This document shows, one piece after another, positions 41,013-59,681 of a DNA stretch of 64,000 bases. Within the stretch, counting starts at the first letter, position 1. Each line of letters starts with the position of its first letter. This DNA is from an uncultured Actinomycetota bacterium (GTDB lineage: Bacteria; Actinomycetota; Actinomycetes; Propionibacteriales; Nocardioidaceae), in the NCBI GenBank assembly GCA_963808855.1, contig CAWEHA010000003.1, positions 55,315-119,314 of the forward strand, given 5' to 3'. Made by a program: the position numbers and the translations under genes. The notes under the pieces are model-generated. The model saw nothing but the letters and a program-made list of their open reading frames with translations, was not told the origin of the DNA and searched no databases.

Positions 41013-41014
41013 CC

Positions 41015-41383: not shown

Positions 41384-41397
41384 ACGAGCACCAATAC

Positions 41398-41461
41398 CGA
41401 GTCGGCGCGTCATTTCACGCCGACTCGAGCCACCTCACCTGACATCTAGCGCCGACTCGAC
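41398..41461. repeat. Three CGCCGACTCG units forming a hairpin (possible bidirectional terminator or REP remnant)
   Basis: 41398-407 (reverse), 41418-27, 41450-59, between convergent genes. Confidence 0.6.
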
Positions 41462-41473
41462 GTTCGATGCCGG

Positions 41474-42259: not shown

Positions 42260-42341
42260 CAGCACCTCATGGGTCGAAGAGAGACCGACGGCCGGCCGTG
42301 GCCCCCCAAGGGCACGACCGGCCGCCGGCAGGGAGGGTCTG

Positions 42342-43370: not shown

Positions 43371-43488
43371 AGTTCCTCCATTGGAATGCTTGTTCAGGAC
43401 CCGATCGGCCGGGTCTCCGTCCTGCTGTGGTGCCCGAGGGTCCGGTCGGTGGGGAGACGTCGTGCCGTCCGCCCGGACTTCTGGCTGG

Positions 43489-44349: not shown

Positions 44350-45224
44350 CAGATCACCACCTCCTCACGCCAGCGGCTGGCCCACACCTCGAGGCGGCGC
44401 GAGGCCGTGACGAGGAAGAGGGCGATCGCGATGAGCAGGAGGATGAAGCCGAACATCCGCGCGGTGTCGTACATGCGGGCGGACTTGATGACCTCGCCAC
44501 CGATGCCGGCGGCACCGATGAGCAGCTCGACCGACAGCAGGCCGACGAAGCCGCGCGAGATCGCGTTGCGCACGCCGCTGGCGATGAACGGCATCGCCGC
44601 CGGAAAGACCACCTTGAGGAAGACCGCGGTCCTCCCACCGCCGAAGCACCGGGCGGCCCGGACGAGCGAGGCGTCGACGGTCTGCACGCCCTCCTTGCAG
44701 CTGAGGCAGAGCGGGATGGCCGCCGACAGCACGACCATGTAGACGCTGGTGGTGGTGCTGAACCCGGAGATCAGGATCAGCAGCGGCGCGAAGGCGATGT
44801 TGGGCAGCGCGAAGAAGCCCCACAGGTAGGGCGAGGTGATGAGGTCGATCGTCGGCGAGAGGCCGATGATCAGGCCCACGGGGATCGCCAGGAGCGAGAG
44901 CGCCATGCCGAGCGCCAGCGGGCCGGCGCTGTCCTGCACCGCCTGCCACACCGAGCCGTCCTCGACGGCGTCGGCGAACGCCGTGAAGACCGCGCCGGGC
45001 CCGGGCAGGATCAGCGGCTCGGGATCGGTGATCACCACGGCGAGCTGCCAGACCAGGAAGAACAGCGCCAGGCTGATGAAGGCGGGCAGCTGGCGACGCA
45101 CGGCCTTGCCCCACGACTTCTTGCGGGCGGGCCCGAGGTGGGAGCTCCCGCCGGACTGGTGTCCCCGCACCGTCACCTCCTCGCCGGCGGCGGTGCCGAT
45201 GCTCGGAGTGCTGGAGAAGCTCAT
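44349..45224 (-). CDS. NitT/TauT-type ABC permease
   Basis: EGVQTVDASLVRAARCFGG, GIGG. Confidence 0.9.
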   Translation of the reverse strand: MSFSSTPSIGTAAGEEVTVRGHQSGGSSHLGPARKKSWGKAVRRQLPAFISLALFFLVWQLAVVITDPEPLILPGPGAVFTAFADAVEDGSVWQAVQDSAGPLALGMALSLLAIPVGLIIGLSPTIDLITSPYLWGFFALPNIAFAPLLILISGFSTTTSVYMVVLSAAIPLCLSCKEGVQTVDASLVRAARCFGGGRTAVFLKVVFPAAMPFIASGVRNAISRGFVGLLSVELLIGAAGIGGEVIKSARMYDTARMFGFILLLIAIALFLVTASRRLEVWASRWREEVVI

Positions 45225-46126
45225 CGCAGCGCCTCGGGCGGTGCCGCTGACGGCTCGTTGACGATCGACGGCTCCTCGGGGACGGGCTCCCAGGTCGGCT
45301 CCTCGGCGGCCTTCTCGGCCTGCGGGCCGAGCAGCTCCCAGATCCGGTCGCGCAGGGCCTGGAACTCCGGCAGCTTGCGGCTCTCGCGGCTGCGGGGCCG
45401 CGGGATGCCGACCTCGAGGATCTCGCGGATCCGGCCGGGCCGGTTGGTGACCACCGCGATCCGGTCGGCCAGCGTGATCGCCTCGTCGACGCTGTGGGTG
45501 ATGAAGATGATGGCCTGTCCGGTCTCGGCGACGATGCGCGCGAGCTCGTCCTGCATCACCTCGCGGGTCATGGCGTCGACGGCGGCGAACGGCTCGTCCA
45601 TCAGCAGCAGCCGCGGCTCCGTGACGAGGGCGCGGGCCAGGCCGACGCGCTGCCGCATGCCGCCGGACAGCTCGCGCGGGTAGGCCTTCTCGAAGCCCTC
45701 GAGCCCGACGAGCTTGATGTAGTGCTGGACGAGGTCCTTGGTGGAGGAGTCGACCCGCTTCTGCATCTCGAGACCGAACCGGACGTTCTGCTCGGTGGTG
45801 CGCCACGGCATCAGCGCGTAGTCCTGGAACACGACCGCGCGGTCGGTGCCCGGGCCGGTGACCGGCGTGCCGAGCACCTCGATGGTGCCGTCGGACGGCG
45901 GCATGAGGCCGGCGACGACGTTGAGGAATGTGCTCTTGCCACAGCCGCTCGGGCCGACGACGGCGAGGAACTCACCCTGCGCCAGCTCGATGCTGAAGTC
46001 CCGCAGCGCGATCAGCGTGTCCTTCTCGCGGAGCCGGTCATAGGTGACGGCGACGCCGCGCGCCTCGACAGCGAGCGTCTGCGCGCCCAGTTCGCGTCCG
46101 GTGTCGGCCGGATCCCGGTGCTTCAT
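45221..46126 (-). CDS. NitT/TauT-type ABC ATPase
   Basis: GPSGCGKS, LSGGMRQR, LLMDEPF, FITHSVDEA. Confidence 0.95.
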   Translation of the reverse strand: MKHRDPADTGRELGAQTLAVEARGVAVTYDRLREKDTLIALRDFSIELAQGEFLAVVGPSGCGKSTFLNVVAGLMPPSDGTIEVLGTPVTGPGTDRAVVFQDYALMPWRTTEQNVRFGLEMQKRVDSSTKDLVQHYIKLVGLEGFEKAYPRELSGGMRQRVGLARALVTEPRLLLMDEPFAAVDAMTREVMQDELARIVAETGQAIIFITHSVDEAITLADRIAVVTNRPGRIREILEVGIPRPRSRESRKLPEFQALRDRIWELLGPQAEKAAEEPTWEPVPEEPSIVNEPSAAPPEALR

Positions 46127-46160
46127 GTCAGCCCTTCACTGCGGAGGTGAGGAACGCCAC

Positions 46161-46289
46161 TGCAATCGTTTGTGATCGAACTGCCCAGAATCATCGATGT
46201 CAAGCCCTTCGCACGGTGAAACTGAGGTTGTTTCCCTGTTGTGATCGTTTGCAGGACGCCGCGAGTACAAGTCCAATACAAACGTTGGA
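46161..46289 (-). promoter_or_regulatory. ABC operon promoter TTGACA-17-TTCGAT with three LacI-type boxes
   Basis: TGCAATCGTTTGTGA (46161), GTGATCGTTTGCA (46241), TACAAACGTTGGA (46277). Confidence 0.7.
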
Positions 46290-46344
46290 TGTTAATGTAA
46301 CCCAAGTCAGTAGGGATTGGCGGTCGATCCAGCGAGGCTCACAC

Positions 46345-47505
46345 CTAGGCGCTGCGGTAGAGCTTGGTGAGCGTGAACTCGCGGTGCCCGAGCAGCTCGG
46401 CGGCGGTGAGTCGGCCGTTGATCGTGCGCTCGACCACGTCGATGAGGTGCTCGCCCTGCTCCTCCACCGAGGCGCCGCTGGTGAGGAGCGGCGAGCAGTC
46501 GACGTCGATGTGCTCGCCCATCGACGCCACCGTCTTCGGGTTGGCCGAGATCTTCACGACCGGCTGGATCGGGTTGCCGATCGGGTTGCCCTGACCGGTG
46601 GGGAACAGGTTCACGACGCCGCCGCCGGCGGCCATCAGCGTGACGCACTCGGCGGCCGCCGAGGAGGTGTCCATGAAGTGCAGGCCGTTCGTGGTGGGCG
46701 CCTCGGCCGGCGCCAGGGCGCCGACGACCGGCTGGGTGCCGGTCTTGACGATGTTGCCGAGCGCCTTCTCCTCGATCGTCGACAGTCCGCCGGCGATGTT
46801 GCCCTGGGTCGGCTGGGAGCCGAGCAGGTTGGCGCCGGTCTTCTCGATCATGTCGATGTAGTCGTCGTAGAAGCCCTGGAAGCGCGCCCGCACCTCGTCG
46901 CTCACACACCGCTCGGCGATGAGGTGCTCGCCGCCAGTGAGCTCGCTGGTCTCGCCGAAGATCATGGTGCCGCCGGCGTCGACCCACCGGTCGCTGAGGT
47001 AGGCGGTGACCCGGCACGAGCCGAGCCCGGTGGTGGTGTCCGACTCGCCGTCCTTGGTGGTGAGGAGGATCTCGGAGCGCTGCACCGGCTCGCGGCTGTG
47101 CTCGCTGGCGTCCTGGAGGAACTGCTTGGCCACCTTCGCGGCCCTCGGGATGATGCTGAGGTCACCGAAGCCCTCGAGCCACATGCCCTCCACCGGCTTG
47201 CCGGTCTTGGCGATGCCCTCGACCACCCGGCCCGTCCAGTTCGGCTCCACTCCGATCACGATCACGGCCGCCACGTTCGGGTTGGAGCCGATGCCGATCA
47301 GCGTGCGGAAGGTGAGCTCGAGGTCGTCGCCGAACTGCAGCCGCCCGAACGCGTGAGGCAGCGCCATCACGCCGGGGATCAGGGCCGCCACGCCCTCGGC
47401 GGCCGCATTGGACAGGTCGTCGACCGGGAGGATCGCGACGTGGTTGCGGGTGCCGACGGCACCGTTGGGCCGGCGGAATCCGGTCAGGCCACGCTGTTCT
47501 GCCAC
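46345..47505 (-). CDS. suyB: (2R)-sulfolactate sulfo-lyase beta subunit (UxaA family)
   Basis: RNHVAILPVDDLSNAA, PHAFGRLQFGDDLEL, GESDTTTGLGSC, SQPTQGNIAGGLSTIEEKALGN, MDTSSAAAECVTLMAAGG, HREFTLTKLYRSA, matching remembered SuyB. Confidence 0.85.
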   Translation of the reverse strand: MAEQRGLTGFRRPNGAVGTRNHVAILPVDDLSNAAAEGVAALIPGVMALPHAFGRLQFGDDLELTFRTLIGIGSNPNVAAVIVIGVEPNWTGRVVEGIAKTGKPVEGMWLEGFGDLSIIPRAAKVAKQFLQDASEHSREPVQRSEILLTTKDGESDTTTGLGSCRVTAYLSDRWVDAGGTMIFGETSELTGGEHLIAERCVSDEVRARFQGFYDDYIDMIEKTGANLLGSQPTQGNIAGGLSTIEEKALGNIVKTGTQPVVGALAPAEAPTTNGLHFMDTSSAAAECVTLMAAGGGVVNLFPTGQGNPIGNPIQPVVKISANPKTVASMGEHIDVDCSPLLTSGASVEEQGEHLIDVVERTINGRLTAAELLGHREFTLTKLYRSA

Positions 47506-47786
47506 CGGGCACTCCTCACGTTGTGGATGTGGACGTAGTCGCCGACGGCGATGTCGGCGCTGGCGATCGCGGTGCGGACGCCGTACTCGATGACGTCGTC
47601 GCCGCTCGCCACGTCGTGCAGGGCCACCTTGTGCCCGAGCGGGATCGAGGCGAGCACCTCCACCGTGACCGCGGTCGCGCCGTCGAGGAAACCGATCTGC
47701 GCGGAGCCGGGCTCCACGTCGCGCACGGCGACGGCGACGTGGTCACCGTCCTTGTGCGCCAAGAAGCTGGGGAGGGATTCCGACAT
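47484..47786 (-). CDS. suyA: Sulfolactate sulfo-lyase alpha subunit (SAF domain)
   Basis: FLAHKDGDHVAVAV, IPLGHKVAL, VIEYG, VHIHNVRSARW. Confidence 0.82.
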   Translation of the reverse strand: MSESLPSFLAHKDGDHVAVAVRDVEPGSAQIGFLDGATAVTVEVLASIPLGHKVALHDVASGDDVIEYGVRTAIASADIAVGDYVHIHNVRSARWQNSVA

Positions 47787-47798
47787 CGGGACCCTTTC

Positions 47799-47849
47799 TG
47801 GTCAGTGGTCTGACCTCCGACCCTAGAGAGCGGCTCCAGACGGTGTCAA
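47799..47849 (-). promoter_or_regulatory. suyAB promoter TTGACA-18-TAGGGT with FadR-type box TGGTCTGACC
   Basis: Box at 47806-15, partial second TGGTCAG at 47799. Confidence 0.7.
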
Positions 47850-48964
47850 CGGTCACATCCACGAGGTGAGCCGCACGAGCCTCCTGACCCCTCCGCCGGC
47901 GTGACCAGCAGCGGGAGCGGGATTCCCGCCAGCCCTCGGGTGCGCGCCGGCAGCCGCGCGGCCACGTCGCTGAGCACCGCGGCCGCGGGATGTCCAGGGG
48001 CGGAGATCACCAGCGGGACGCCGGCGTCGCCCGCGGCCCGCACCCCGGCGTCCAGCGGGACGCTGCCGAGCAGGGGTGCCTCGGTGGCGGCCGCGAGCCG
48101 CTCTCCCCCACCGGACCCGAAGACGTCGCCGGCCATGTTCTCCACCACGCCGGCGACGGGCATCCGCGCGTCGCGCGCCATCCGCGAGACCCGCGCCGCC
48201 ACCGACTCCGCGGCGTGCTGCGGCGTGGTCACCACGATCATCGACGCCCCGGGCAGCAGCTCCAGCAGCGAGAGGGTCACGTCGCCGGTGCCCGGGGGCA
48301 GGTCGACGAGCAGCACGTCGAGCTGGCCCCAGGCGACGTCGTCGACGAACTGCTCCAGCGCCTTGTGCAGCATCGGACCGCGCCACACCACCGGCTCGTC
48401 GTCGTCGACGAAGAAGCCGACCGACATCAGGCGCACGCCGTGCGCCTCGAGCGGGAACATCAGGCCGGGCACGGCCACCGGCGATCGGCGCACGCCGAAC
48501 AGGGTGGGCTGCGAGTAGCCCCACACGTCGGCGTCGAGCAGGCCCACCCGCGCGCCGGACGCGGCCAGGGAGGCGGCGAGGTTGGCCGTCACGGTCGACT
48601 TGCCGACCCCGCCCTTGCCGGAGGCGACGGCGAACACCCGGGTCGCGCTGCCGAACCCGCCCGGCCGTCGCTGCAGCGGGCGCAGCAGGGACGCGACGGC
48701 GTGGCGGCGGTCGTCGTCGGCGACCTCCACCTCGACCCGGGCCGAGGGCCCGGCCGCCTCCCGCAGCGCGGCCCCGAGGGCGTCGCGGTAGCCCGGGTCG
48801 TCGTCGAGACCCCAGGCGCGCACGTGCACCGTGCCGTGCCGGTGCTCGCCAGTGTCGAGCAGCCCGAGCTCGCCGAGCGGGCGGCCGCTGAGCGGCTCCA
48901 CGACGCCGGCGACGGCCTCGAGCACGGCCCCGACGTCGGCGCGCGGCCGCAGCACCGACCTCAT
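47846..48964 (-). CDS. mrp: Mrp/NBP35/ApbC Fe-S carrier ATPase
   Basis: ASGKGGVGKS, LLDADVWG, VWRGPM, VDLPPGTGD, GVVENM. Confidence 0.93.
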   Translation of the reverse strand: MRSVLRPRADVGAVLEAVAGVVEPLSGRPLGELGLLDTGEHRHGTVHVRAWGLDDDPGYRDALGAALREAAGPSARVEVEVADDDRRHAVASLLRPLQRRPGGFGSATRVFAVASGKGGVGKSTVTANLAASLAASGARVGLLDADVWGYSQPTLFGVRRSPVAVPGLMFPLEAHGVRLMSVGFFVDDDEPVVWRGPMLHKALEQFVDDVAWGQLDVLLVDLPPGTGDVTLSLLELLPGASMIVVTTPQHAAESVAARVSRMARDARMPVAGVVENMAGDVFGSGGGERLAAATEAPLLGSVPLDAGVRAAGDAGVPLVISAPGHPAAAVLSDVAARLPARTRGLAGIPLPLLVTPAEGSGGSCGSPRGCDR

Positions 48965-51795
48965 GCGCCGGCCCCCGGCACGCGGAAGGCGCGGCGCCGC
49001 GGCTTGACCGGACGCATCATGAACTCCGGCCGGCGCAGGCCCTCGGCGTTGGGGCCGGGCCGGGTCATGGCGAGCCACTCGCGGTAGACCTCGCGCGCCC
49101 GCCCGGTGTCGACCTCGACGTCGCCGTACTGGTCGCCGGGTGCGGCCGGCGCCACGGTGACGAGCTGGTGCCAGCAGTGGGCGCCCGACCACGGGTCGGG
49201 CTGCACCGGGAACGTCAGGTTCTGGTGGACGCCGGGGTCGTCCCAGTTGATCCGGGAGCTGTCGGGGTCGTTGCTGCGGAAGGGCGCCGGGTGCTCGGCG
49301 TACCGCATCCGCCACACCCCCTCGTCGCTGCGGTCGATGTCGACCTTCCCGCTGGCCCAGCGGCTGGCGTGGATGTCGTCGAGCCGCCACCGGCCCATGT
49401 GGTGGCTGAGCGCCACGATGCCGGGGCGGATGCCCTGGTGCGCCCACGCCCGCGCCACGAAGTGGCCGATGCGCGTGGTCACCCGCACCAGGTCGCCGGT
49501 GGCGATGCCGAGTCGCGCGGCGTCGTCGTCGTGCACCCACAGCGGGTGGGTGTTGCTCAGCTCGTTGAGGTACTTGGCGTTGCCCGAGCGGGTGTGGATG
49601 AGGGTGGGCAGCCGGAACGTCGGCACGAGCACCACCTGGCCGGCGTCGAGGTCGACCTTGCGGCGCGACACGTGCGACTCGATGTAGCCGGGGGTGGCGT
49701 GCTCGGGCCAGCCGAACGAGGCCATGGAGTCCGACCAGATCTCGAGCTTGCGGCTCGGCGTGAGCCAGCCCGCCACCTCCGAGCCGTCGTCGAGCCGCAC
49801 CCCCACCGCGCCCGCCTCGCCGATGAGCGGCGGCGTGGAGTCGTCGGTGGTGGGCTTGCGGAGCACGCCGTCGGCGTCGGGCTCGGCGCCGGCGCGCTCC
49901 TCGCGGGTGAGCGCGCGCTCGTCCTGGCGGTAGACGTCCTTGCTGATCTCGACGACGCCGTACTTGCGCATGTAGCCGAGCGCCGTGAGCCCCTCGGCCT
50001 CGGCCTTCTCGGGCAGACCGGGCACCCGGTTCTCGAAGACCCAGCGGTAGTACTCGTCGACGGTGACCTTCTCCCCCGGCCGGTAGGGCGACTCGAAGTA
50101 CCGGCGGATGCCGAGCGAGCCGTCGGGGTCGATGCGCCAGGAGAGGTCGAACCAGAACTCGTTCTCCTCCCACACCTCGCCGGGATTGCTCTCGCGGGTG
50201 TCGCTCACCGGCCGGCCGAGCTTCTCCCGCGCCACCCGCTGCACCGGCTGCCGGAACCCGAGCCAGCGGCCCGCGTGGGTCTCGTAGGAGTGGGTGTCGT
50301 GGCGCTCGGTGGCGTGGCCCATCGGCAGCACGTAGTCGGCGAAGATCGCCGTCTCCGACCAGGTCGGCGTCAGCGCGACGTGCAGGCCGACGGCGTCGGT
50401 GCGGGTGAGGGTCTCGATCCAGCTGAAGCCGTCCGGGTTGGTCCACACCGGGTTGTAGACGCGGGTGAAGTAGACGTCGAGGTCGCCGCGGCCGTCCTGC
50501 AGCAGGTGTGGCAGCAGGAACGACATCTCGTTGGTCGACAGCGGGTACTCCGCGGGCCAGAGCAGCTCGTTCCACTGGTCGTGGCCCTCGGGGACGTCGA
50601 AGCCGTGGGCGATGAACTTGTCCCAGCCGTTGGGGCTGGTGCCGCCGGGGGTGCCGACGCTGCCGGTGAGCACGTTGAGGAAGAACAGCGACCGGGCGAC
50701 CTGCCAGCCGCCGAGGTTGCCCGCCGCGGCCGAGCGCCAGATGTGGGCCGAGAGCTTGCTGCCCGCCCCGGCGACGATCTCGGCGAGCGCCTCGATCCGC
50801 TCCACCGGCACCTGCGCCTCCTCCGCGGCGAACTCGAAGGTGTAGCGGGCGTAGTCGTCGGTCATCGCGTCGACGAACGACTCGAAGTCGCGGGGCCGTT
50901 CGGGGTGGAGGCGGTCGAGATAGGTGCCCCAGTTGACCCAGCGCCGCAGGTAGTCGCGATCGATCCGGTCGGTGCGCAGCAGGTACGAGGCGACCGCGAG
51001 CAGGATCGCCGCCTCGCTGCCGGGCCACGGCGCCAGCCACAGGTCGGCGTGGCTCGCCGTGTTGGACATCCGGACGTCGAGCACGACCAGCTTCGCGTTG
51101 CCCTCGTGCTTGGCCTCCATGATCCGCTGGGCGTGCGGGTTGAAGTAGTGACCCGTCTCCAGGTGCGACGAGAGCAGCAGGATCACGTCGGCGTTCGCGT
51201 AGTCGGGCGCGGGCCGGTCGTAGCCGCCCCAGGTGGTGTAGCCGAGCCGGGCGCCGGAGGAGCAGATGTTGGTGTGGCTGTTGTGGCCGTCGACCCCCCA
51301 CGCCAGCAGGAACCGCTCGGCGAAGCCGTCCTCCCCCGGTCGGCCGACGTGGTAGACCACCCGGTCGCGCCGGTCCTGCTCGATCGCGGCGCGGATCCGG
51401 CCGGCGATGTCGTCCAGCGCCTCGTCCCAGGTGCAGCGCTCCCACCCGCCGGCGCCGCGCTCGCCGACCCGCTTCAGCGGGTGCAGGATCCGCTCCGGGT
51501 CCTCGATCTGGTTGATCGTGGCCGGGCCCTTGGCGCAGTTGCGGCCGCGGGAGCCGGGGTGGGCGGGGTTGCCCTCCAGCTTGGTGATCGACAGGTCGTC
51601 CTTCGCCACGTGCGCGAGCAGGCCGCACGCCGACTCGCAGTTGAAGCACGTGGTGGGGATGAGCATGAACTCGCGCTTCACCTTGCGCGGGTGCGCGCGG
51701 GCGTCGTGCGCCACGTGGTGGTCCCAGGTCTCCGGGGGCGGGTAGTTACGCAGGTGCTCATGGCTCCGCGCGCCGGGCAGTTCGTGGGTGGTCAT
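48961..51795 (-). CDS. Mo-bisPGD (DMSO reductase family) catalytic subunit, Cys-ligated, no Tat signal
   Basis: TTCFNCESACG...NCAKG FS0 cluster; HNSHTNICSSG ligand loop; ADYVLP; C-terminal HTRSGN/molydop-binding domain. Confidence 0.92.
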   Translation of the reverse strand: MTTHELPGARSHEHLRNYPPPETWDHHVAHDARAHPRKVKREFMLIPTTCFNCESACGLLAHVAKDDLSITKLEGNPAHPGSRGRNCAKGPATINQIEDPERILHPLKRVGERGAGGWERCTWDEALDDIAGRIRAAIEQDRRDRVVYHVGRPGEDGFAERFLLAWGVDGHNSHTNICSSGARLGYTTWGGYDRPAPDYANADVILLLSSHLETGHYFNPHAQRIMEAKHEGNAKLVVLDVRMSNTASHADLWLAPWPGSEAAILLAVASYLLRTDRIDRDYLRRWVNWGTYLDRLHPERPRDFESFVDAMTDDYARYTFEFAAEEAQVPVERIEALAEIVAGAGSKLSAHIWRSAAAGNLGGWQVARSLFFLNVLTGSVGTPGGTSPNGWDKFIAHGFDVPEGHDQWNELLWPAEYPLSTNEMSFLLPHLLQDGRGDLDVYFTRVYNPVWTNPDGFSWIETLTRTDAVGLHVALTPTWSETAIFADYVLPMGHATERHDTHSYETHAGRWLGFRQPVQRVAREKLGRPVSDTRESNPGEVWEENEFWFDLSWRIDPDGSLGIRRYFESPYRPGEKVTVDEYYRWVFENRVPGLPEKAEAEGLTALGYMRKYGVVEISKDVYRQDERALTREERAGAEPDADGVLRKPTTDDSTPPLIGEAGAVGVRLDDGSEVAGWLTPSRKLEIWSDSMASFGWPEHATPGYIESHVSRRKVDLDAGQVVLVPTFRLPTLIHTRSGNAKYLNELSNTHPLWVHDDDAARLGIATGDLVRVTTRIGHFVARAWAHQGIRPGIVALSHHMGRWRLDDIHASRWASGKVDIDRSDEGVWRMRYAEHPAPFRSNDPDSSRINWDDPGVHQNLTFPVQPDPWSGAHCWHQLVTVAPAAPGDQYGDVEVDTGRAREVYREWLAMTRPGPNAEGLRRPEFMMRPVKPRRRAFRVPGAGA

Positions 51796-51805
51796 CGGGC
51801 TCCGT

Positions 51806-53320
51806 TCATGACAGGGGCACGTCTTGTCCGGCCCGCACGAAGGCGGTCTCGTAGGCCAGCAGCGCCGGTTGCACGAGCAGGCCGGCGACGGCGAGCAGCC
51901 AGCCGGGCTCGCCCGTCCACGCCACGGCGGCCAGCACCAGCGCGACGACGGTGGGGGCGACCTTGCCGCCCCAGAACAGCGAGCGGTAGCGGCCGCGGAG
52001 GATCGTGCGCGCCGCCACCGCGGCGCCGCGGCTGTGGTGGCGCCCGCCGAGGTCGAGACCCGAGATCAGCAGGTCGAGCACGCAGGCGACGACGAGCACG
52101 CGAGCCGCCAGGGCCATCCCGTCGGCGTCCAGCCCCGCCACGAGCCCGGCGACCGCCACGGCGCCGGCGCCGACCTCGGCCGCCTGCACGAGGAGGTGCG
52201 GCAGCAGCCAGCGGGACTGCCACAGGTCGCGCCCCTCGGCCTGCCGGAAGAGGAACGCGGTGTAGCCGGCGGCCGCGGCCGCGGCGACGATGGCGGGCAC
52301 GGCGAGCCAACGTTGCGCTGTTGCGGCGTCGGCGATGCCGGTGAGGAACCACGCCGTGCAGGCAGCGCCGAACGCCAGCAGGCAGTAGCCGCCGAGCACC
52401 AGCCACGAGCGGTGGTTGCCGCGGGTGAACAGGAACCAGAACCGCTCGGGCCGCTTGAGGTCCCACACCAGCAGTGCGCCGGTGACCGCCGCCCCGACCG
52501 CGCCCACCACCGGAGCCACGACCGCGCCGGTGGCACCGAGGTCGACGCCGAGGAGCACCGCGAGCGCCGCCACGAACAGCGCTCCCGCCCCGAGGCCCTT
52601 GGTCCACAGGTAGGTGATCACCCGCCAGCCCCACGGGCGCGGGTGCGCGGTGTTGAGGGTGGTGGCGGCCGTCGGGTCGGCGCCCTCGAAGTCGGCCGAC
52701 GTCGTGAGCCGGTGGTCGTCGGGCTGCGCCCAGATGTAGGTGTCGCGCACCGGTGCCTCGAGCGGGTCGAGCACCGCCTTCGCGGCGCCGAGGTAGAACA
52801 CGTTGGGCCCGGTGCCCTGGTCGGGCGCCCGGACGGCGGTCTCGTTGCTGGCGATCAACCGCGAGATGCCCGAGCTCTCGTCGTCGAGGTCGCCGACCCA
52901 GATCGAGTGGGTCGGGCACACCACCACGCAGGCGGGCTCGAGCCCGTCGTCCACCCGATGCGCGCAGAAGTTGCACTTGGCCGCGGTGTTGGTGTCGTCG
53001 TCGATGTAGATCGCGTCGTACGGGCACGCCTGCATGCACGACTTGCACCCGATGCAGGAGGAACTGTCGAAGTCGACGATGCCGTCGTCGCGCTTGAACA
53101 GCGCGTTCGTCGGACAGATCTTGATGCACGGCGCGTCGGTGCAGTGGTTGCAGCGCATCACGCCGAAGTCGCGGCGGGAGTCGGGGAAGGTGCCGGAGTC
53201 GACGTACTTGACCCAGGTGCGGAACTGTCCGACCGGCACCCGGTGCTCGGTCTTGCAGGCCACGGTGCACGCGTGGCACCCGATGCAGGTGTTCTGGTCG
53301 ATCGCGAAGCCGTACCTCAC
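51806..53320 (-). CDS. 4x[4Fe-4S] electron-transfer domain fused to NrfD/PsrC membrane anchor
   Basis: CIGCHAC, CNHCTDAPC, CIGCKSC, KCNFC..PACVVVCP, then WGWRVITYLW, DLKRPERF and TM helices. Confidence 0.92.
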   Translation of the reverse strand: MRYGFAIDQNTCIGCHACTVACKTEHRVPVGQFRTWVKYVDSGTFPDSRRDFGVMRCNHCTDAPCIKICPTNALFKRDDGIVDFDSSSCIGCKSCMQACPYDAIYIDDDTNTAAKCNFCAHRVDDGLEPACVVVCPTHSIWVGDLDDESSGISRLIASNETAVRAPDQGTGPNVFYLGAAKAVLDPLEAPVRDTYIWAQPDDHRLTTSADFEGADPTAATTLNTAHPRPWGWRVITYLWTKGLGAGALFVAALAVLLGVDLGATGAVVAPVVGAVGAAVTGALLVWDLKRPERFWFLFTRGNHRSWLVLGGYCLLAFGAACTAWFLTGIADAATAQRWLAVPAIVAAAAAAGYTAFLFRQAEGRDLWQSRWLLPHLLVQAAEVGAGAVAVAGLVAGLDADGMALAARVLVVACVLDLLISGLDLGGRHHSRGAAVAARTILRGRYRSLFWGGKVAPTVVALVLAAVAWTGEPGWLLAVAGLLVQPALLAYETAFVRAGQDVPLS

Positions 53321-53358
53321 GCGGGACCTTCCCTGGTGCTCGAACGCCGGTGGAAAGA

Positions 53359-53375
53359 GGTCTGTCCACTATAGT
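53359..53375. promoter_or_regulatory. FadR-type box GGTCTGTCCA abutting palindromic ACTATAGT (TATAGT -10 on both strands)
   Basis: Divergent intergenic region between the FeS-NrfD gene and fadR. Confidence 0.6.
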
Positions 53376-53419
53376 CATCCCGTCGGTGCCTCCACGCCGA
53401 CGGGACCGAACGGAGTGCG

Positions 53420-54169
53420 ATGACACCCGAGGACATGCTCGCGGGCTGGCAGCCCCTCGGCCAAGGCACCCTGGGCGACCGCATCAAGTCCGAGATCATG
53501 CGCGTGATCCGCGACCAGCGGCTCGGACCGGGCGACCGGCTGCCGTCCGAGCGCGACCTCGCCGCCACCCTCCGGGTCAGCCGGCCCTCGGTGCGCGAGG
53601 CGGTCCGGTCGCTGCAGGCCGAGGGACGCCTCGTCGTCCGGCACGGCCAGGGGGTCTTCGTCGCCGAGCCCGCGATGCAGCGCAACCTGCGCGAGTCGAT
53701 CGCCCAGCTCGACCACAGCCTGAGCGAGCTGTTCGCGATGCGGGAGGTGCTGGAGGTGCCGGCCGCGCGCTGGGCCGCGCAGCGCCAGGACCCCGAGGGC
53801 GTGCAGGCCGTGCAGGCCGCCTTCACCGACCTCGACGACGCGCTGCGGGTGGAGCCGCGCGACTTCGAGCAGCTCCAGCTGCTCGACGCCAACTTCCACC
53901 TCCGCATCGTGCAGGCGGCCGGGAACCGCCTGCTCGTGCAGAGCCAGGGCGTGCTGAACGAGCTCCTGCTCACGGGCATGCAGACCACCCTGGCGATCGA
54001 GGGCCGGGTCGACCAGTCCCGCGAGGAGCACCTGCGGATCCTCAACGCCATCCTCGACGGCGACGCAGCCTCGGCCGCCCGGGCCGCGCAGGCGCACGTC
54101 AACAACACCCGCCGCGCGGCGAACCGACGCATCGCCGAGGCCAACGCCCGGCTCGAGCCGAGTCCCTAG
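53420..54169 (+). CDS. FadR/GntR family regulator
   Basis: GDRLPSERDLA, VSRPSVREA, RHGQGVFV, DANFH, AAGNRLL. Confidence 0.93.
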   Translation: MTPEDMLAGWQPLGQGTLGDRIKSEIMRVIRDQRLGPGDRLPSERDLAATLRVSRPSVREAVRSLQAEGRLVVRHGQGVFVAEPAMQRNLRESIAQLDHSLSELFAMREVLEVPAARWAAQRQDPEGVQAVQAAFTDLDDALRVEPRDFEQLQLLDANFHLRIVQAAGNRLLVQSQGVLNELLLTGMQTTLAIEGRVDQSREEHLRILNAILDGDAASAARAAQAHVNNTRRAANRRIAEANARLEPSP

Positions 54170-54178
54170 GACTCGGGA

Positions 54179-55771
54179 GTGGCCGGGCTCCGTGCGGGGA
54201 GCAACTGGCTGACCCGTCCCTGTCGTGGCGACCTGGTGGCGGGGCTCACGGTCGCGCTCGTGCTCGTGCCCCAGTCGCTCGCCTACGCGGTCGTGGCCGG
54301 GATGCCGCCGGTCAACGGCCTGTACGCCGCCGCCGTCGCACCGCTGCTCGCCGGCCTGATCGGCTCCTCGCCGTACCTCTCCACCGGACCCGCGGCCCTC
54401 ACCAGCCTGCTCGTCCTGGGCTCGCTCGCGCCGTTCCCCGACCTCTCGGCGCCCGAGTACGTCGCCCACGCCGGACTGCTGGCGCTGGTGGTCGGCGCGT
54501 GCCGGGTGACGCTCGGGCTGGTGCGCGGCGGTGGGCTCGCCTACCTGATGAGCCAGCCGGTCGTCGTCGGCTTCACGGTGGCGGCCGCCGTCCTGATCTC
54601 CACCTCCCAGCTGCCTGCTGCGGTCGGCACCTCGGGCTCGTCCGACAGCCCGCTGGTGTCGGCCGTGGGACTCCTCGACGACGTCGGCGCGTGGTCGTGG
54701 GCGGCGATCCTCGTCTCGATCGCCACGTTCGCTGGCACGCTGCTCGCCCGCCGGGTGCACCCGCTGCTGCCCGGCGGCTTCCTGGTCGCCGTCCTCGCGC
54801 TGCTCGTCGTGCGCTCGGGGTGGCTCGACCAGCCCGTCGTCGGCACCATCCCCTCCGGCCTGCCGCCGTTCAGCCTCGACCTGCCGTGGGCGTCGCTCCC
54901 CTCGCTGCTCGTGCCGGGCGTGGTGATCGCGCTCGTCGGATTCGCCGAGCCCGCCGCGATCGCGCGCCGCTACGCCTCCGCCGAGCGCCAGCCGTGGGAC
55001 CCCGACCGCGAGCTGGTCGGCCAGGGCCTCGCGAACCTCGGCGTCGCCGTCACCGGCGGCTTCGCCGTCGGCGGCTCGTTCTCCCGCTCCTCCCTCAACA
55101 GGCTCTCCGGGGCCAAGTCGCGGTGGAGCGGCGTCGTGTCCGGCGCCGTGGTGCTCGCCTTCCTCCCGTTCACGGGCGTGCTGTCGGGCCTGCCCGTCGC
55201 CGTCCTGGCCGGCCTCGTGCTGGCGGCGATGGTCACCCTCCTCGACCCGCGGCCGCTGCTCCGCACGTGGCGGTACTCGCGTCCCCAGTTCGTCGTGGCC
55301 CTGGTGACGGCGGTCGTCTGCCTCGCGGCCGCTCCCGAGGTGCAGTGGGGCGTCGTCGCCGGCGTCGGCCTCGCGCTCGGCATCCACCTGTGGCGCGAGC
55401 GCCGGCTCGACGTCGACGTCTGGGACGAGCACGACCTCCTCCACGTGCGACCCCAGGGCGTCCTCTACTTCGGCTCCGCGCCGGCCCTCGAGACCCGCAT
55501 CCTCCGCGAGCTCGCCGAGCATCCCGGGCTGCGCCGGGTCGAGCTGCATCTGCAGCGGCTCGGCCGGGTCGACCTCACGGGCGCCCTGGTGCTGCGCGAC
55601 ATCTGCCGCGACCTCGCCGCGGCCGACGTCGCGGTGGTGATCAGTGGCGCGCAGCCGCAGAGCCGCCGCCTCATCGGCACGGTGCTCGCCGGCGAGGGCG
55701 TCGACCACACCCACGGGCCCCGCAACACCGTCTCCCCCGCCCACCCCCGCCTGCGGGAGCGCCCGACGTGA
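54179..55771 (+). CDS. SulP family anion transporter with STAS domain
   Basis: DLVAGLTVALVLVPQSLAYA, LSTGPA, RELVGQGLAN, GSFSRS, LYFGSA. Confidence 0.93.
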   Translation: MAGLRAGSNWLTRPCRGDLVAGLTVALVLVPQSLAYAVVAGMPPVNGLYAAAVAPLLAGLIGSSPYLSTGPAALTSLLVLGSLAPFPDLSAPEYVAHAGLLALVVGACRVTLGLVRGGGLAYLMSQPVVVGFTVAAAVLISTSQLPAAVGTSGSSDSPLVSAVGLLDDVGAWSWAAILVSIATFAGTLLARRVHPLLPGGFLVAVLALLVVRSGWLDQPVVGTIPSGLPPFSLDLPWASLPSLLVPGVVIALVGFAEPAAIARRYASAERQPWDPDRELVGQGLANLGVAVTGGFAVGGSFSRSSLNRLSGAKSRWSGVVSGAVVLAFLPFTGVLSGLPVAVLAGLVLAAMVTLLDPRPLLRTWRYSRPQFVVALVTAVVCLAAAPEVQWGVVAGVGLALGIHLWRERRLDVDVWDEHDLLHVRPQGVLYFGSAPALETRILRELAEHPGLRRVELHLQRLGRVDLTGALVLRDICRDLAAADVAVVISGAQPQSRRLIGTVLAGEGVDHTHGPRNTVSPAHPRLRERPT

Positions 55772-55895
55772 ACGCCCGTTGAGCCGTCCCCCCACGGGCC
55801 GGCCCAACGGACGCAGAGTCACAGTTCCCGACCTGGCGAGACTTATCGCAAGGTCCGCTCAAGATCGCCTCAAGAACAACCCGGGCGCCGAGTCG

Positions 55896-57356
55896 CTACC
55901 AGCTGACGGCGACGTACTTCGACTCGAGATAGTCGAGCATGCCCTCGTGGCCGCCCTCGCGGCCGACGCCGGACTGCTTGGTGCCGCCGAAGGGGGCGGC
56001 GGGATCGGAGACGAGGCCGCGGTTGAGGCCGACCATGCCGGAGTCGAGCCGCTCGCTGAGCCGCAGCCCGCGGGCGAGGTCGGCGGTGTAGACGTAGGAC
56101 ACCAGGCCGTACTCGGTGTCGTTGGCCATCGCCACCACCTCGTCCTCCGAGGTGAAGGTGACGATCGGGGCCACCGGGCCGAAGATCTCCTCCGCCAGGA
56201 TGCCGGCGTCGCCGGGCACGTCGGCGAGCACGGTGGGCTCGAAGTAGAAGCCCTCCCGGTCGGGCCGCGCGCCCCCGACGAGCACGCGCGCGCCGGCGTC
56301 GACGGCGCCGCGGACGAGCTCGTCGACCTTGCCGGCCGTCTCGTCGTTGACCAGCGGGCCGACCTCGGTGCCGTCGGCGGTGCCGGGTCCGAGGCGCATC
56401 GCGCCCATCCGGTTCGCCAGTCGCTGGCCGAACTCCTCGGCCACGTCGGCGTGCACGTAGAAGCGGTTGGCGGCGGTGCAGGCCTCACCGGCGTTGCGCA
56501 TCTTGGCCACCATGGCGCCGTCGAGTGCGGCGTCGAGGTCGGCGTCGTCGAGCACGACGAACGGAGCGTTGCCGCCGAGCTCCATCGAGCAGTTGACCAC
56601 CTGGTCGGCGGCTTCGCGCAGCAGCACCCGCCCCACCTCGGTGCTTCCGGTGAACGACAGCTTGCGCACCCGCGGGTCGTGGAGCATCGCCGACACCACC
56701 GCACCCGAGCGCCGGGCCGGCAGCACGTTCACGACGCCGGCCGGCACGCCGGCGTCCTCGAGGATCTTGGCCATCAGCAGCGCGGTGAGGGGCGTGTCGC
56801 TCGCCGGCTTGAGGACGACGGTGCAGCCGGCCGCCAGCGCCGGGCCGATCTTGCGGGTGGCCATCGCCGCCGGGAAGTTCCACGGCGTCACGAGCACGCA
56901 GATGCCCACCGGCTGCCGCAGCACCACGATCTTGTTCGCACCCGACGGCGCGGTCATCACCGAGCCCTCGGCGCGCACCGCCTCCTCGGCGTACCAGCGG
57001 AAGAACTCCGCCGCGTAGGCCACCTCGCCGCGGGCGTCGGGGAGGGCCTTGCCGTTCTCCAGCGAGATCAGGTGCGCGAGGTCGTCGGCCCGCCCGGTCA
57101 TCAGCTCGAAGGCGCGGCGCAGCACCTCGGAGCGCTCGCGCGGTGCGGCGGCGGCCCAGGCCCCGGCCGCGGCGTCGGCGGCGTCGACGGCGGCCATCGC
57201 GTCGTCGACCGTGCCGTCGGCCACCGAGGTGAGCGCCGCGCCGGTGGCGGGGTCGATCACGTCGAAGCGCCCGCCGTCGGAGGCCGGCACCGCCTTGCCG
57301 CCGACGTAGAGGTCGACGGGCAGGTCGGGGAGGTCAGCGAGAGAGAAATCGCCCAT
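55896..57356 (-). CDS. gabD: NAD(P)-dependent succinate-semialdehyde dehydrogenase
   Basis: TPWNFPAAMATRK, SFTGSTEVG, MELGGNAP, AGEACT, EEIFGP. Confidence 0.9.
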   Translation of the reverse strand: MGDFSLADLPDLPVDLYVGGKAVPASDGGRFDVIDPATGAALTSVADGTVDDAMAAVDAADAAAGAWAAAAPRERSEVLRRAFELMTGRADDLAHLISLENGKALPDARGEVAYAAEFFRWYAEEAVRAEGSVMTAPSGANKIVVLRQPVGICVLVTPWNFPAAMATRKIGPALAAGCTVVLKPASDTPLTALLMAKILEDAGVPAGVVNVLPARRSGAVVSAMLHDPRVRKLSFTGSTEVGRVLLREAADQVVNCSMELGGNAPFVVLDDADLDAALDGAMVAKMRNAGEACTAANRFYVHADVAEEFGQRLANRMGAMRLGPGTADGTEVGPLVNDETAGKVDELVRGAVDAGARVLVGGARPDREGFYFEPTVLADVPGDAGILAEEIFGPVAPIVTFTSEDEVVAMANDTEYGLVSYVYTADLARGLRLSERLDSGMVGLNRGLVSDPAAPFGGTKQSGVGREGGHEGMLDYLESKYVAVSW

Positions 57357-57368
57357 GGTCGAGGCCTT

Positions 57369-59572: not shown

Positions 59573-59599
59573 CGGTGGGCCTCCAGCACGGATCAGGAA

Positions 59600-59672
59600 T
59601 GCAAACGAGTGCAGTGTCTCGGCTGCGCAAACCCGGTGTCAAGCCACGCAAGGCCCGATGCAATCGGTTGCA
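59600..59672 (-). promoter_or_regulatory. Internal promoter (TTGACA 59637-42) flanked by two TGCAA-N4-(T/G)TGCA-type boxes
   Basis: TGCAAACGAGTGCA (59600) and TGCAATCGGTTGCA (59659). Confidence 0.6.
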
Positions 59673-59681
59673 GGAAACTGC

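What the first reader, a model, noticed from the sequence alone, without database searches (positions are those of the whole stretch)
48961..53320. Tat-less, Cys-ligated Psr-like enzyme with an FeS-NrfD fusion
The N-terminus (MTTHELPGARSHEHLRNYPPPETWDHH) has no twin-arginine motif, so the catalytic face is probably cytoplasmic, as in SoeABC and unlike PsrABC/TtrABC. The ligand loop HNSHTNIC has Cys, not Sec, Ser or Asp. The B and C subunits are fused into one 504-aa protein, and a dedicated Mrp Fe-S carrier is co-transcribed. Such proteins are easily mislabelled formate dehydrogenase; the substrate is unknown.
Basis: partly seen in the sequence, partly recalled or inferred. Interest (0 to 1): 0.62.

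Follow-up and report, generated by a model that had tools for sequence, protein, structure and literature searches.

The report
Inward-facing molybdoenzyme, probably oxidises sulfite
This soil actinobacterium has a membrane-bound molybdenum enzyme that faces the cell interior and sits beside the enzyme that splits sulfite off sulfolactate. It belongs to a widespread, unstudied enzyme lineage that most likely turns toxic sulfite into sulfate, the job of the known enzyme SoeABC, to which it is only distantly related.

Summary
On the minus strand lie a 504-aa fusion of a four-cluster ferredoxin and an NrfD membrane anchor (53320-51806), a 944-aa Mo-bisPGD catalytic subunit (51795-48961) and an Mrp-like ATPase (48964-47846). 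The catalytic subunit has no Tat signal and no possible upstream start. Its Cys178 aligns with the Mo ligand Cys173 of PsrA.

The enzyme belongs to a well-supported clade found in about 10% of sampled Actinomycetota, and also in Thermomicrobium, haloarchaea and Myxococcota. In 40 of 40 sampled loci the fused gene precedes the catalytic gene. Persulfide dioxygenase, DsrE or TusA genes lie nearby in 30 of 40 loci, against 0 of 20 control windows; SulP in 22 of 40 against 0 of 20. The positive-inside charge bias is 18:1 for this anchor but absent or reversed in Tat-exported sister enzymes, so the anchor is inverted.

Canonical SoeA is only 28% identical over 246 residues, forms a separate clade and uses a DmsC-type anchor.

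Best reading (about 0.6): a cytoplasm-facing sulfite:menaquinone oxidoreductase that is a functional analogue of SoeABC, not an orthologue. No activity has been tested.

The parts
51806..53320 (-). Fused electron-transfer and anchor subunit (504 aa). The N-terminal PsrB-like ferredoxin (about residues 1-180) has four [4Fe-4S] clusters, a linker of about 50 aa follows, and an NrfD-type anchor with 8 TM helices (residues 234-494) completes it. Predicted topology is N-in, C-in.
   Evidence: Pfam Fer4_11 (E = 3.2e-26) and NrfD (E = 3e-17). PsrB 2vpw_B, E = 5.8e-50. K+R loop bias 18:1. AF2 gives eight long helices with pLDDT above 90 in the NrfD part. GTG is the only possible start, with a GGAAGG Shine-Dalgarno.
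48961..51795 (-). Catalytic Mo/W-bisPGD subunit (944 aa) without a Tat signal. FS0 cysteines are C50, C53, C57 and C87. The Mo ligand is Cys178 (codon 51264-51262).
   Evidence: AF2 model: pLDDT 81, pTM 0.86. Best folds are ArrA 6cz7 and PsrA 2vpw, TM 0.71.
47846..48964 (-). Mrp/NBP35/ApbC-family P-loop ATPase (372 aa), translationally coupled to the catalytic gene (ATGA overlap). This copy lacks the CxxC cluster-binding motif.
   Evidence: PF10609, E = 4e-79. NCBIfam MrpORP and ApbC score below their cut-offs. Motif comparison with 11 relatives.
47484..47786 (-). SuyA-like small subunit (100 aa; N-terminal part of the UxaA family).
   Evidence: Weak match to positions 7-79 of the galactarate dehydratase model. 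It is paired with SuyB as in the suyAB pair of C. pinatubonensis.
46345..47505 (-). SuyB-like large subunit (386 aa) of (R)-sulfolactate sulfo-lyase, which releases sulfite and pyruvate.
   Evidence: GD_AH_second plus GD_AH_C. It is 58.9% identical over 98% of its length to the SuyB of the C. pinatubonensis hpsRNOUP-suyAB cluster (PMC11382572).
53420..54169 (+). Divergent GntR/FCD (FadR-type) regulator, candidate regulator of the locus.
   Evidence: Pfam GntR plus FCD.
54179..55771 (+). SulP/STAS anion transporter, candidate sulfate exporter (or sulfite transporter).
   Evidence: Pfam Sulfate_transp (E = 3e-74) plus STAS. SulP homologues lie beside the enzyme in 22 of 40 other loci against 0 of 20 control windows.
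53359..53370 (+). Operator-like box GGTCTGTCCACT in the 99-bp divergent promoter region.
   Evidence: Only two matches to GGTCWGWCCACT with at most one mismatch occur in 64 kb, and both lie in promoter regions of this locus. The pattern was derived from these two sites, so this is suggestive only.
47804..47815 (-). Second copy of the box (GGTCAGACCACT, part of the palindrome GGTCAGACCACTGACC). It lies in the 59-bp gap before suyA, downstream of a TTGACA / TAGGGT promoter-like pair.

Best explanation
The two genes encode a membrane-bound complex iron-sulfur molybdoenzyme whose catalytic and ferredoxin parts sit on the cytoplasmic side.

Proposed mechanism: sulfite is released in the cytoplasm, here by the sulfolactate lyase SuyAB encoded directly downstream. 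It is oxidised to sulfate at the Cys178-ligated Mo-bisPGD centre. The two electrons pass through FS0 and the four [4Fe-4S] clusters of the fused ferredoxin domain to menaquinone, which binds in the inverted NrfD domain. Sulfate leaves through the SulP transporter encoded on the other side of the shared promoter region.

What is shown: gene order, domain content, absence of any export signal, the charge bias of the anchor, clade membership and gene neighbourhoods.

What is inferred: sulfite as substrate, the direction of electron flow, menaquinone as acceptor, and sulfate export by SulP.

The enzyme works like SoeABC but is not a member of that family. It belongs to a separate clade whose nearest relatives are Tat-exported enzymes with the gene order B, NrfD, A, chaperone.
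For: Orientation:
- No Tat signal and no upstream start.
- K+R in loops on the ferredoxin side against the other side is 18:1 here and 13:0, 12:2, 10:0, 11:0 and 7:2 in five other fused homologues. In the separate NrfD subunits of Tat-exported sisters it is 4:4, 9:6, 2:4 and 4:9.

Clade:
- SH-aLRT 100 with a stem of 1.47. The clade holds actinobacterial, Thermomicrobium, Natrinema and Myxococcota members plus Tat-bearing P0131, P0205 and P0158.

Sulfite as the common denominator of independent contexts:
- suyAB lies directly downstream in this window.
- In R. jostii RHA1 plasmid pRHL3 the DsrE-TusA-BC-A-Mrp genes are flanked by three MBL-rhodanese (persulfide dioxygenase type) genes.
- A CsoR/CstR-like regulator sits upstream in T. 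roseum.
- A PDO-rhodanese gene and YeeE-type transporters lie beside the Myxococcota homologue.
- In 40 sampled loci, PDO, DsrE or TusA lie nearby in 30 of 40, against 0 of 20 control windows 100 kb away (matched 15/20 against 0/20, p = 4e-7). SulP: 22 of 40 against 0 of 20 (matched 13/20 against 0/20, p = 6e-6).
- SulP lies directly downstream of Mrp on the same strand in loci L208 and L209.

Precedent:
- Canonical soeABC also clusters with rhd-tusA-dsrE (PMC6335251) and with organosulfonate genes in R. pomeroyi (PMC4334477).
Against: - No activity, expression or mutant data exist for any member of the clade that I could find.
- Sequence alone cannot tell an oxidase from a reductase in this superfamily.
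- SuyB and the enzyme do not co-occur beyond chance in 301 class genomes (overlap 2, about 1.3 expected). None of 40 other loci has suyAB, so the link in this window is a single case.
- The genome also holds four SUOX-family (PF00174) genes that could oxidise sulfite.
- The neighbourhood counts come from related genomes and are not fully independent.
- PDO-rhodanese fusions also make thiosulfate, so that context alone does not single out sulfite.
- Aquifex SoeA, SreA and TtrA could not be placed in the tree.
Confidence: 0.6

Rival explanations
1. It is a cytoplasm-facing, menaquinol-dependent reductase of an inorganic sulfur compound (thiosulfate, polysulfide or sulfane sulfur, tetrathionate). 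It would work like PsrABC or PhsABC but on the inside, for example removing thiosulfate or sulfane sulfur made by the neighbouring PDO-rhodanese enzymes.
For: - The nearest curated and solved relatives are reductases: PhsA is the best NCBIfam hit (173 bits), PsrB matches at E = 5.8e-50, and ArrA and PsrA are the best folds.
- Rhodanese, DsrE and TusA neighbours handle sulfane sulfur.
Against: - SuyAB yields sulfite and pyruvate, not thiosulfate or sulfane sulfur (PMC11382572).
- Reducing these compounds in the cytoplasm would regenerate toxic sulfide beside genes that remove it.
- The frequent SulP partner fits a fully oxidised anion product.
- All curated reductase models score far below their cut-offs.
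Confidence: 0.13
2. It oxidises sulfur bound to a carrier protein (a TusA or DsrE persulfide or thiosulfonate) rather than free sulfite. That would make it a quinone-linked, oxygen-independent cytoplasmic sulfur oxidase.
For: In 10 of 20 class-level loci and on RHA1 pRHL3, DsrE and TusA genes lie directly upstream of the fused B-C gene on the same strand, in the order DsrE, TusA, BC, A.
Against: - This window has no DsrE or TusA within about 10 kb on either side (the 40000-60000 stretch searched) and instead has SuyAB, which gives free sulfite.
- Most such loci also hold an O2-dependent PDO that already makes sulfite.
- No Mo-bisPGD enzyme is known to act on a protein-bound substrate (own knowledge).
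Confidence: 0.1
3. It acts on a non-sulfur substrate: formate (as some database names say), arsenite or arsenate (given the ArsR-family neighbours), or an organic sulfonate or other compound of the local catabolic pathway.
For: - Some sources name homologues 'formate dehydrogenase'.
- ArsR/SmtB-type regulators lie nearby in 23 of 40 loci.
- ArrA is the top structural match.
Against: - Fdh-alpha scores 141 bits against a cut-off of 666, and ArrA 75 bits against 1600.
- The residue after the ligand Cys is Ser, not the His of formate dehydrogenases (own knowledge of the FdhH U140-H141 pair).
- The ArsR-type genes sit among PDO, rhodanese, DsrE and TusA genes, as persulfide-sensing members of that family do. 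No arsenic genes were seen in the annotated loci inspected.
Confidence: 0.07

Closest known systems
SoeABC sulfite:quinone oxidoreductase (Allochromatium vinosum, Ruegeria pomeroyi, Aquifex aeolicus). Reference used here: Sedimenticolaceae SoeABC, P0285-P0287, 81% identical to SoeA of Chromatiaceae.
   Same: - A three-module iron-sulfur molybdoenzyme without a Tat signal, with a catalytic subunit of about 950 aa and a Cys at the ligand position.
- A predicted cytoplasmic active site.
- Linkage to TusA/DsrE genes and to organosulfonate desulfonation genes (PMC6335251, PMC4334477, PMC8076601).
   Different: - Only 28% identity over 246 N-terminal residues, and a separate, long-stemmed clade.
- The anchor is NrfD (PF03916), whereas SoeC is DmsC (PF04976) with no detectable similarity.
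- B and C are fused, the gene order is BC-A rather than A-B-C, and an Mrp gene is often attached.
- NCBI names canonical proteins 'SoeA' but gives this family only a generic name.
Polysulfide / thiosulfate reductase PsrABC / PhsABC (Thermus thermophilus 2VPZ; enterobacterial Phs)
   Same: - The same subunit kinds: an FS0-bearing Mo-bisPGD subunit with a Cys ligand (Cys178 = PsrA Cys173), a four-cluster ferredoxin and an 8-TM NrfD anchor.
- The best sequence and fold matches among solved structures.
   Different: - No Tat signal, and the anchor has the opposite charge bias.
- B and C are fused.
- The catalytic subunit is about 180 aa longer.
- PhsA model: 173 bits against a cut-off of 694.
- The proposed reaction runs the other way (oxidation, quinone reduction).
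Unnamed Tat-exported sister enzymes in the same clade (P0131, P0205, P0158) and the more distant Sulfurovum mangrovi and Azoarcus sp. KH32C pAZKH homologues, which were not placed in the tree
   Same: - For the three clade members, membership of the same clade with up to 47% identity.
- The shared N-terminal 'PP.E.W' motif in P0131, P0205, P0158 and Sulfurovum, and the HTNIC ligand loop in Sulfurovum.
- The order B, then NrfD, then A.
   Different: - They carry a twin-arginine signal and separate B and NrfD genes.
- Those whose downstream genes were seen (P0131, Sulfurovum, Azoarcus) also carry a TorD/NarJ-type chaperone and a polyferredoxin of about 360 aa.
- Their NrfD lacks the charge bias seen here.
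- Their function is also unknown.

Membership tests
SoeABC (canonical sulfite dehydrogenase) | Catalytic subunit orthologous to SoeA of A. vinosum / R. pomeroyi | tested here: not met
   P0001 against bona fide SoeA (P0285, named SoeA by NCBI, 81% identical to Chromatiaceae SoeA): 28% identity over 246 aa, the rest barely alignable. They fall in separate clades, each with SH-aLRT 100. Aquifex SoeA could not be obtained.
SoeABC (canonical sulfite dehydrogenase) | Separate SoeB ferredoxin and DmsC-type SoeC anchor; gene order A-B-C | tested here: not met
   Here B and C are one 504-aa protein with an NrfD (PF03916) anchor, encoded upstream of A. SoeC is PF04976 and shows no BLAST similarity.
SoeABC (canonical sulfite dehydrogenase) | No Tat signal; active site on the cytoplasmic side | tested here: met
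   (prediction from sequence, not experiment).
SoeABC (canonical sulfite dehydrogenase) | Sulfite:quinone oxidoreductase activity | not testable with these tools
   Only gene-context inference is available.
Psr/Phs/Arr-type complex iron-sulfur molybdoenzymes (CISM with NrfD anchor) | Mo-bisPGD subunit with an FS0 Cys4 motif and a Cys Mo ligand | tested here: met
   Three Pfam domains. C50, C53, C57 and C87 form FS0, and Cys178 aligns with PsrA Cys173. Fold TM 0.71 to ArrA and PsrA.
Psr/Phs/Arr-type complex iron-sulfur molybdoenzymes (CISM with NrfD anchor) | Four-cluster ferredoxin subunit and 8-TM NrfD anchor | tested here: met
   16 cysteines in four motifs. PsrB, E = 5.8e-50. NrfD, E = 3e-17. 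Eight confident helices in the AF2 model.
Psr/Phs/Arr-type complex iron-sulfur molybdoenzymes (CISM with NrfD anchor) | Tat export of the A subunit (periplasmic active site) | tested here: not met
   No twin-arginine signal in this protein or in about 120 homologues. Charge bias 18:1 puts the ferredoxin side inside.
Psr/Phs/Arr-type complex iron-sulfur molybdoenzymes (CISM with NrfD anchor) | Reaches the curated cut-off of a named equivalog (PhsA, TtrA, ArrA, QrcB) | tested here: not met
   Scores against cut-offs: PhsA 173/694, TtrA 92/1750, ArrA 75/1600, QrcB 87/440.
Formate dehydrogenase (name given by some sources) | Reaches the Fdh-alpha / FDH-N model cut-off; Sec/Cys-His active-site pair | tested here: not met
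   Fdh-alpha 141 bits against 666; FDH-N 102 bits against 814. The ligand is followed by Ser179.
Mrp/NBP35/ApbC Fe-S carrier | P-loop ATPase fold of the family | tested here: met
   PF10609, E = 4e-79; GKGGVGKS motif present.
Mrp/NBP35/ApbC Fe-S carrier | CxxC motif that holds the transferable cluster | tested here: not met
   The window copy reads ENMAGDVFGSGGG, with the segment deleted. The closest relative (L197) has Ser/Ala there. RHA1, Natrinema and seven other operon-linked copies keep CxxC.
SuyAB (R)-sulfolactate sulfo-lyase | Split UxaA-family pair orthologous to SuyAB of organisms that degrade sulfolactate or DHPS | tested here: met
   A 100-aa plus 386-aa pair. It is 58.9% identical to the C. 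pinatubonensis SuyB in the hpsN-hpsO-...-suyAB cluster and 56% identical to Paracoccus copies. Other UxaA-family proteins reach at most 40%. Activity was not tested.

The most novel reading that the evidence does not exclude
The clade is a third, quinone-linked and oxygen-independent route of cytoplasmic sulfur oxidation. In the common DsrE-TusA-BC-A operons the molybdoenzyme would take sulfane sulfur or thiosulfonate handed over by TusA or DsrE and oxidise it to sulfite or sulfate, alongside free sulfite. That would put it beside rDsr and sHdr as a core sulfur-oxidising machine, and it would be present in aerobic Actinomycetota, Thermomicrobia and haloarchaea.
Probability: 0.1. Interest if true: 0.85.

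Novelty: new variant of a known kind. Interest (0 to 1): 0.6.

Why it matters
- Sulfite is toxic and is released inside the cell by organosulfonate desulfonation and by persulfide dioxygenases. Outside Proteobacteria and Aquificae, the enzyme that removes it in the cytoplasm is mostly unassigned.
- This clade occurs in roughly one in ten sampled Actinomycetota genomes and crosses into Thermomicrobia, Myxococcota and haloarchaea. It is annotated only as 'molybdopterin-dependent oxidoreductase' or wrongly as formate dehydrogenase. Surveys that search for canonical soeABC would probably not count it (inference, not tested here).
- If it is a sulfite:menaquinone oxidoreductase, sulfonate and sulfide sulfur would feed electrons into the respiratory chain of aerobic soil actinobacteria.
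- It is also a clear natural case of a respiratory enzyme turned inside out. Compared with Tat-exported sisters in the same clade it has lost the signal peptide and the chaperone, fused B to C, and reversed the charge bias of the anchor.
- A named, cultivable host with the operon exists (R. jostii RHA1), so the hypothesis can be tested directly.

Tried and rejected
- Finding canonical SoeA took several dead ends. Plasmid tblastn hits in Agrobacterium, Caballeronia and Ralstonia were unrelated 700-760-aa enzymes. The 14 control genomes hold no sulfur oxidiser. 'of' does not accept a locus. It worked by fetching a locus in Sedimenticolaceae and Thiodiazotropha genomes and searching those genomes.
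- NCBIfam has no SoeA HMM, so no model-based membership test was possible.
- A 977-aa hit in the Thiodiazotropha genome turned out to be a Tat-bearing FdnG-like protein, not SoeA.
- My crude Tat regex mislabelled the window protein as 'TAT' in the tree labels. It matched KREFM directly before the first FS0 cysteine. The label is an artefact.
- Co-occurrence of SuyB and the enzyme across 301 class genomes showed no association.
- The in-frame TGA reported for one homologue is just its stop codon, not selenocysteine.
- AF2 of the fused subunit gave a confident NrfD part but a ferredoxin domain with pLDDT below 50, so nothing can be said about docking.
- No usable RNA runs were found for this organism; all listed runs hold at most 0.20 of the words.
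- Consensus scans found no promoter and no terminator inside the operon beyond chance.
- Literature searches found no paper on this clade.
Full report
**What is there**

The window has about 73% G+C and is Nocardioides-like; the best named homologue is from N. caldifontis at 87% identity. On the minus strand five genes run head to tail.

- A 504-aa fusion of a PsrB-like four-cluster ferredoxin and an NrfD anchor (53320-51806).
- A 944-aa Mo-bisPGD catalytic subunit (51795-48961), 10 nt downstream and preceded by a Shine-Dalgarno sequence.
- An Mrp/NBP35-family ATPase (48964-47846), whose ATG overlaps the preceding stop codon.
- After a 59-bp gap, a SuyA-like gene (47786-47484) and a SuyB-like gene (47505-46345).

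A GntR/FCD regulator (53420-54169) and a SulP/STAS transporter (54179-55771) diverge from the fusion gene.

**Checking the observation**

The catalytic subunit has no twin-arginine signal.

- Its first 49 residues are polar.
- They carry a motif (LPG.R.HE.LRNFPP.E.WDHH...KV.REFMLIPTTC) conserved in about 120 homologues. None of these has an RR motif followed by a hydrophobic stretch.
- The 90 in-frame codons upstream contain no ATG, GTG or TTG. They overlap the end of the fusion gene in another frame.
- The fusion gene's GTG lies 16 codons after a stop, with no other start between.

Cys178 in HNSHTNIC aligns with the Mo ligand Cys173 of T. thermophilus PsrA and with the ligand Cys of NapA. The fusion protein has 16 cysteines in four cluster motifs and an NrfD domain. 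AF2 models the NrfD part as eight long helices with pLDDT above 90. In the last protein search the best 120 listed hits were all about 500 aa long and carried both Fer4 and NrfD Pfam domains.

**Orientation**

I placed eight helices at residues 234-494 and counted K+R in the loops.

- The loops on the same side as the N-terminal ferredoxin hold 18 K+R; the other side holds 1.
- Five other fused homologues give 13:0, 12:2, 10:0, 11:0 and 7:2.
- The homologous, well-aligned NrfD subunits of four Tat-exported relatives give 4:4, 9:6, 2:4 and 4:9.

By the positive-inside rule the ferredoxin domain and the catalytic subunit docked on it are cytoplasmic. The anchor is inverted relative to its exported relatives. 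This is a prediction from sequence, not an experiment.

**Which family**

No curated NCBIfam equivalog is reached. The scores against cut-offs are PhsA 173/694, Fdh-alpha 141/666, TtrA 92/1750 and ArrA 75/1600. Among solved structures, PsrB is by far the best match for the ferredoxin part (E = 5.8e-50). The AF2 model of the catalytic subunit (pLDDT 81, pTM 0.86) is closest to ArrA and PsrA, with TM 0.71 at 17-19% identity.

To test membership of SoeABC I needed a true SoeA.

- I obtained one from a Sedimenticolaceae genome: A of 969 aa without a Tat signal, B of 239 aa and C of 331 aa.
- NCBI names it 'sulfite dehydrogenase subunit SoeA', and it is 81% identical to SoeA of Chromatiaceae.
- Against it the window protein shows 28% identity over 246 N-terminal residues and little else.
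- SoeC is a DmsC-family protein (PF04976) with no similarity to the NrfD domain here.
- In a 43-sequence tree the window protein lies in a clade with SH-aLRT 100 and a long stem. Canonical SoeA forms a different clade, also at 100.

The enzyme is therefore not a SoeABC member, although it resembles SoeABC in orientation.

**The clade and its relatives**

Tat-less members:
- Actinomycetota, at 56-87% identity.
- Thermomicrobium roseum megaplasmid, 60%.
- Haloarchaea (Natrinema, Halomarina), about 52%.
- A Myxococcota MAG, 43%.

The clade also holds Tat-bearing proteins: P0131 at 47%, P0205 and P0158. A frameshifted Sulfurovum copy (38%) also bears a Tat signal, but it was not in the tree.

The Tat-bearing relatives share the N-terminal 'PP.E.W' motif. 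They have separate B and NrfD genes in the order B, NrfD, A. The clusters of P0131 and Sulfurovum, and that of the more distant Azoarcus homologue, continue with a TorD/NarJ-type chaperone and a polyferredoxin.

The Tat-less members thus differ from their sisters in four ways: no signal peptide, no chaperone, B fused to C, and a reversed charge bias of the anchor. The direction of change is inferred, because the tree is unrooted within the clade.

Distribution is patchy:
- 30 of 301 genomes in the phylum sample.
- 28 of 301 in the class sample.
- 0 of 15 other genomes of the same genus.

**Function**

I took 40 loci chosen only for holding a homologue: 20 from other classes of the phylum and 20 from class Actinomycetes. 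I searched the 8-10 kb on each side for a fixed set of query proteins. As a control I used 20 windows 100 kb away in 20 of the same genomes. 'Matched' means the 20 loci from those same genomes.

| Neighbour | All loci | Matched loci | Control windows | p (matched) |
|---|---|---|---|---|
| Fused B-C gene directly upstream | 40/40 | 20/20 | 0/20 | 7e-12 |
| MBL-rhodanese (persulfide dioxygenase type) | 27/40 | 14/20 | 0/20 | 2e-6 |
| DsrE | 17/40 | 6/20 | 0/20 | 0.01 |
| TusA | 15/40 | 7/20 | 0/20 | 0.004 |
| PDO, DsrE or TusA (any) | 30/40 | 15/20 | 0/20 | 4e-7 |
| SulP | 22/40 | 13/20 | 0/20 | 6e-6 |
| ArsR-type regulator | 23/40 | 10/20 | 0/20 | 2e-4 |

- In several loci the genes lie in the same orientation in the order DsrE, TusA, BC, A, Mrp, SulP.
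- On R. jostii RHA1 plasmid pRHL3 the same core is flanked by three MBL-rhodanese genes.
- T. roseum has a CsoR/CstR-like regulator upstream.
- The Myxococcota copy sits beside a PDO-rhodanese gene and YeeE-type transporters.

This window is different. It has none of these genes, but it has suyAB. The SuyB is 58.9% identical to the SuyB of the C. pinatubonensis hpsRNOUP-suyAB cluster. It falls in a 55-69% group well separated from other UxaA-family proteins, which reach at most 40%. SuyAB cleaves sulfolactate to pyruvate and sulfite (PMC11382572).

Persulfide dioxygenases and SuyAB share one product, free cytoplasmic sulfite. A cytoplasm-facing, quinone-linked molybdoenzyme next to an anion transporter is what one would expect for oxidising it to sulfate and exporting that. 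Canonical soeABC shows the same two kinds of linkage:
- with rhd-tusA-dsrE in Acidithiobacillus (PMC6335251);
- with taurine genes in R. pomeroyi (PMC4334477).

I therefore put sulfite:menaquinone oxidoreductase at about 0.6.

**Limits**

- Nothing has been measured.
- The superfamily holds both oxidases and reductases, and the nearest characterised relatives are reductases.
- suyAB linkage is unique to this window among the loci examined. SuyB and the enzyme do not co-occur beyond chance (2 observed, about 1.3 expected).
- The genome has four SUOX-family genes.
- The sampled loci are phylogenetically related, so the Fisher tests overstate independence.
- I could not obtain Aquifex SoeA, SreA or TtrA. 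If one of them fell inside this clade, the novelty claim would shrink.

**Regulation and maturation (side findings)**

A box GGTCWGWCCACT occurs exactly twice in 64 kb. One copy is in the divergent promoter region (53359-53370). The other is in the gap before suyA (47804-47815), where it is part of the palindrome GGTCAGACCACTGACC, downstream of TTGACA and TAGGGT. The pattern was derived from these two sites, so this is only suggestive of a common GntR-type regulator.

The operon-linked Mrp occurs in about half of the class Actinomycetes loci, in RHA1 and in Natrinema. The copy here, and that of the nearest relative, has lost the CxxC motif that the others keep. Calling it a dedicated Fe-S carrier is therefore uncertain for this genome.

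**Novelty**

I found no paper on this clade. The review of NrfD-type complexes lists SoeABC as the only inward-facing case and does not mention fusions (PMC8076601). Earlier notes of this scan on other genomes reached a similar reading. I used them as leads and re-tested the main points independently here. I class the finding as a new variant of a known kind, the complex iron-sulfur molybdoenzymes.

Noticed in passing
window 47846-48964 (-); also L197 (G440): The operon-linked Mrp/NBP35 homologue lacks the family's CxxC cluster-binding motif. It reads ENMAGDVFGSGGG, a deletion of about 11 residues. The nearest relative has Ser/Ala at those positions. RHA1, Natrinema and seven other operon-linked copies keep CxxC. 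This copy ends in an unusual SCGSPRGC.
   Followed up: partly
window 53359-53370 (+) and 47804-47815 (-): A shared 12-nt box GGTCWGWCCACT lies in the divergent gntR / BC-A promoter region and in front of suyA. There are no other matches with at most one mismatch in 64 kb. It is a possible common operator of the GntR/FCD regulator.
   Followed up: partly
L219 (P0131), L045 (Sulfurovum mangrovi plasmid), L046 (Azoarcus sp. KH32C pAZKH), L033 (P0158): These are Tat-exported relatives with the order ferredoxin, NrfD, catalytic subunit. In L219, L045 and L046 a TorD/NarJ chaperone and a polyferredoxin of about 360 aa follow. The Azoarcus cluster sits beside a PhnD-like binding protein, a sensor kinase, a sigma-54 regulator and an ACR3 arsenite pump. 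Their function is unknown.
   Followed up: partly
L045:7700-11400 (Sulfurovum mangrovi plasmid NZ_CP087125.1): The catalytic gene of the Sulfurovum homologue is broken by two frameshifts and is not annotated. It is either a pseudogene or a sequencing error.
   Followed up: no
G000 contigs C1:95714, C2:28502, C2:1826901, C2:2315192: The genome holds four SUOX-family (PF00174) molybdoenzyme genes, one with an in-frame TGA. They are possible alternative sulfite oxidases or MsrP-like proteins.
   Followed up: no
class-level genomes of genus g231 (1.3-1.5 Mb): Nine small-genome actinobacteria of one genus carry a SuyB orthologue (66-67% identity) but not this molybdoenzyme. They must handle the released sulfite in another way.
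   Followed up: no
window 43489-46126 (-): Two binding-protein-dependent permease genes and an ABC ATPase gene lie directly downstream of suyB on the same strand. They are a possible sulfonate uptake system.
   Followed up: no
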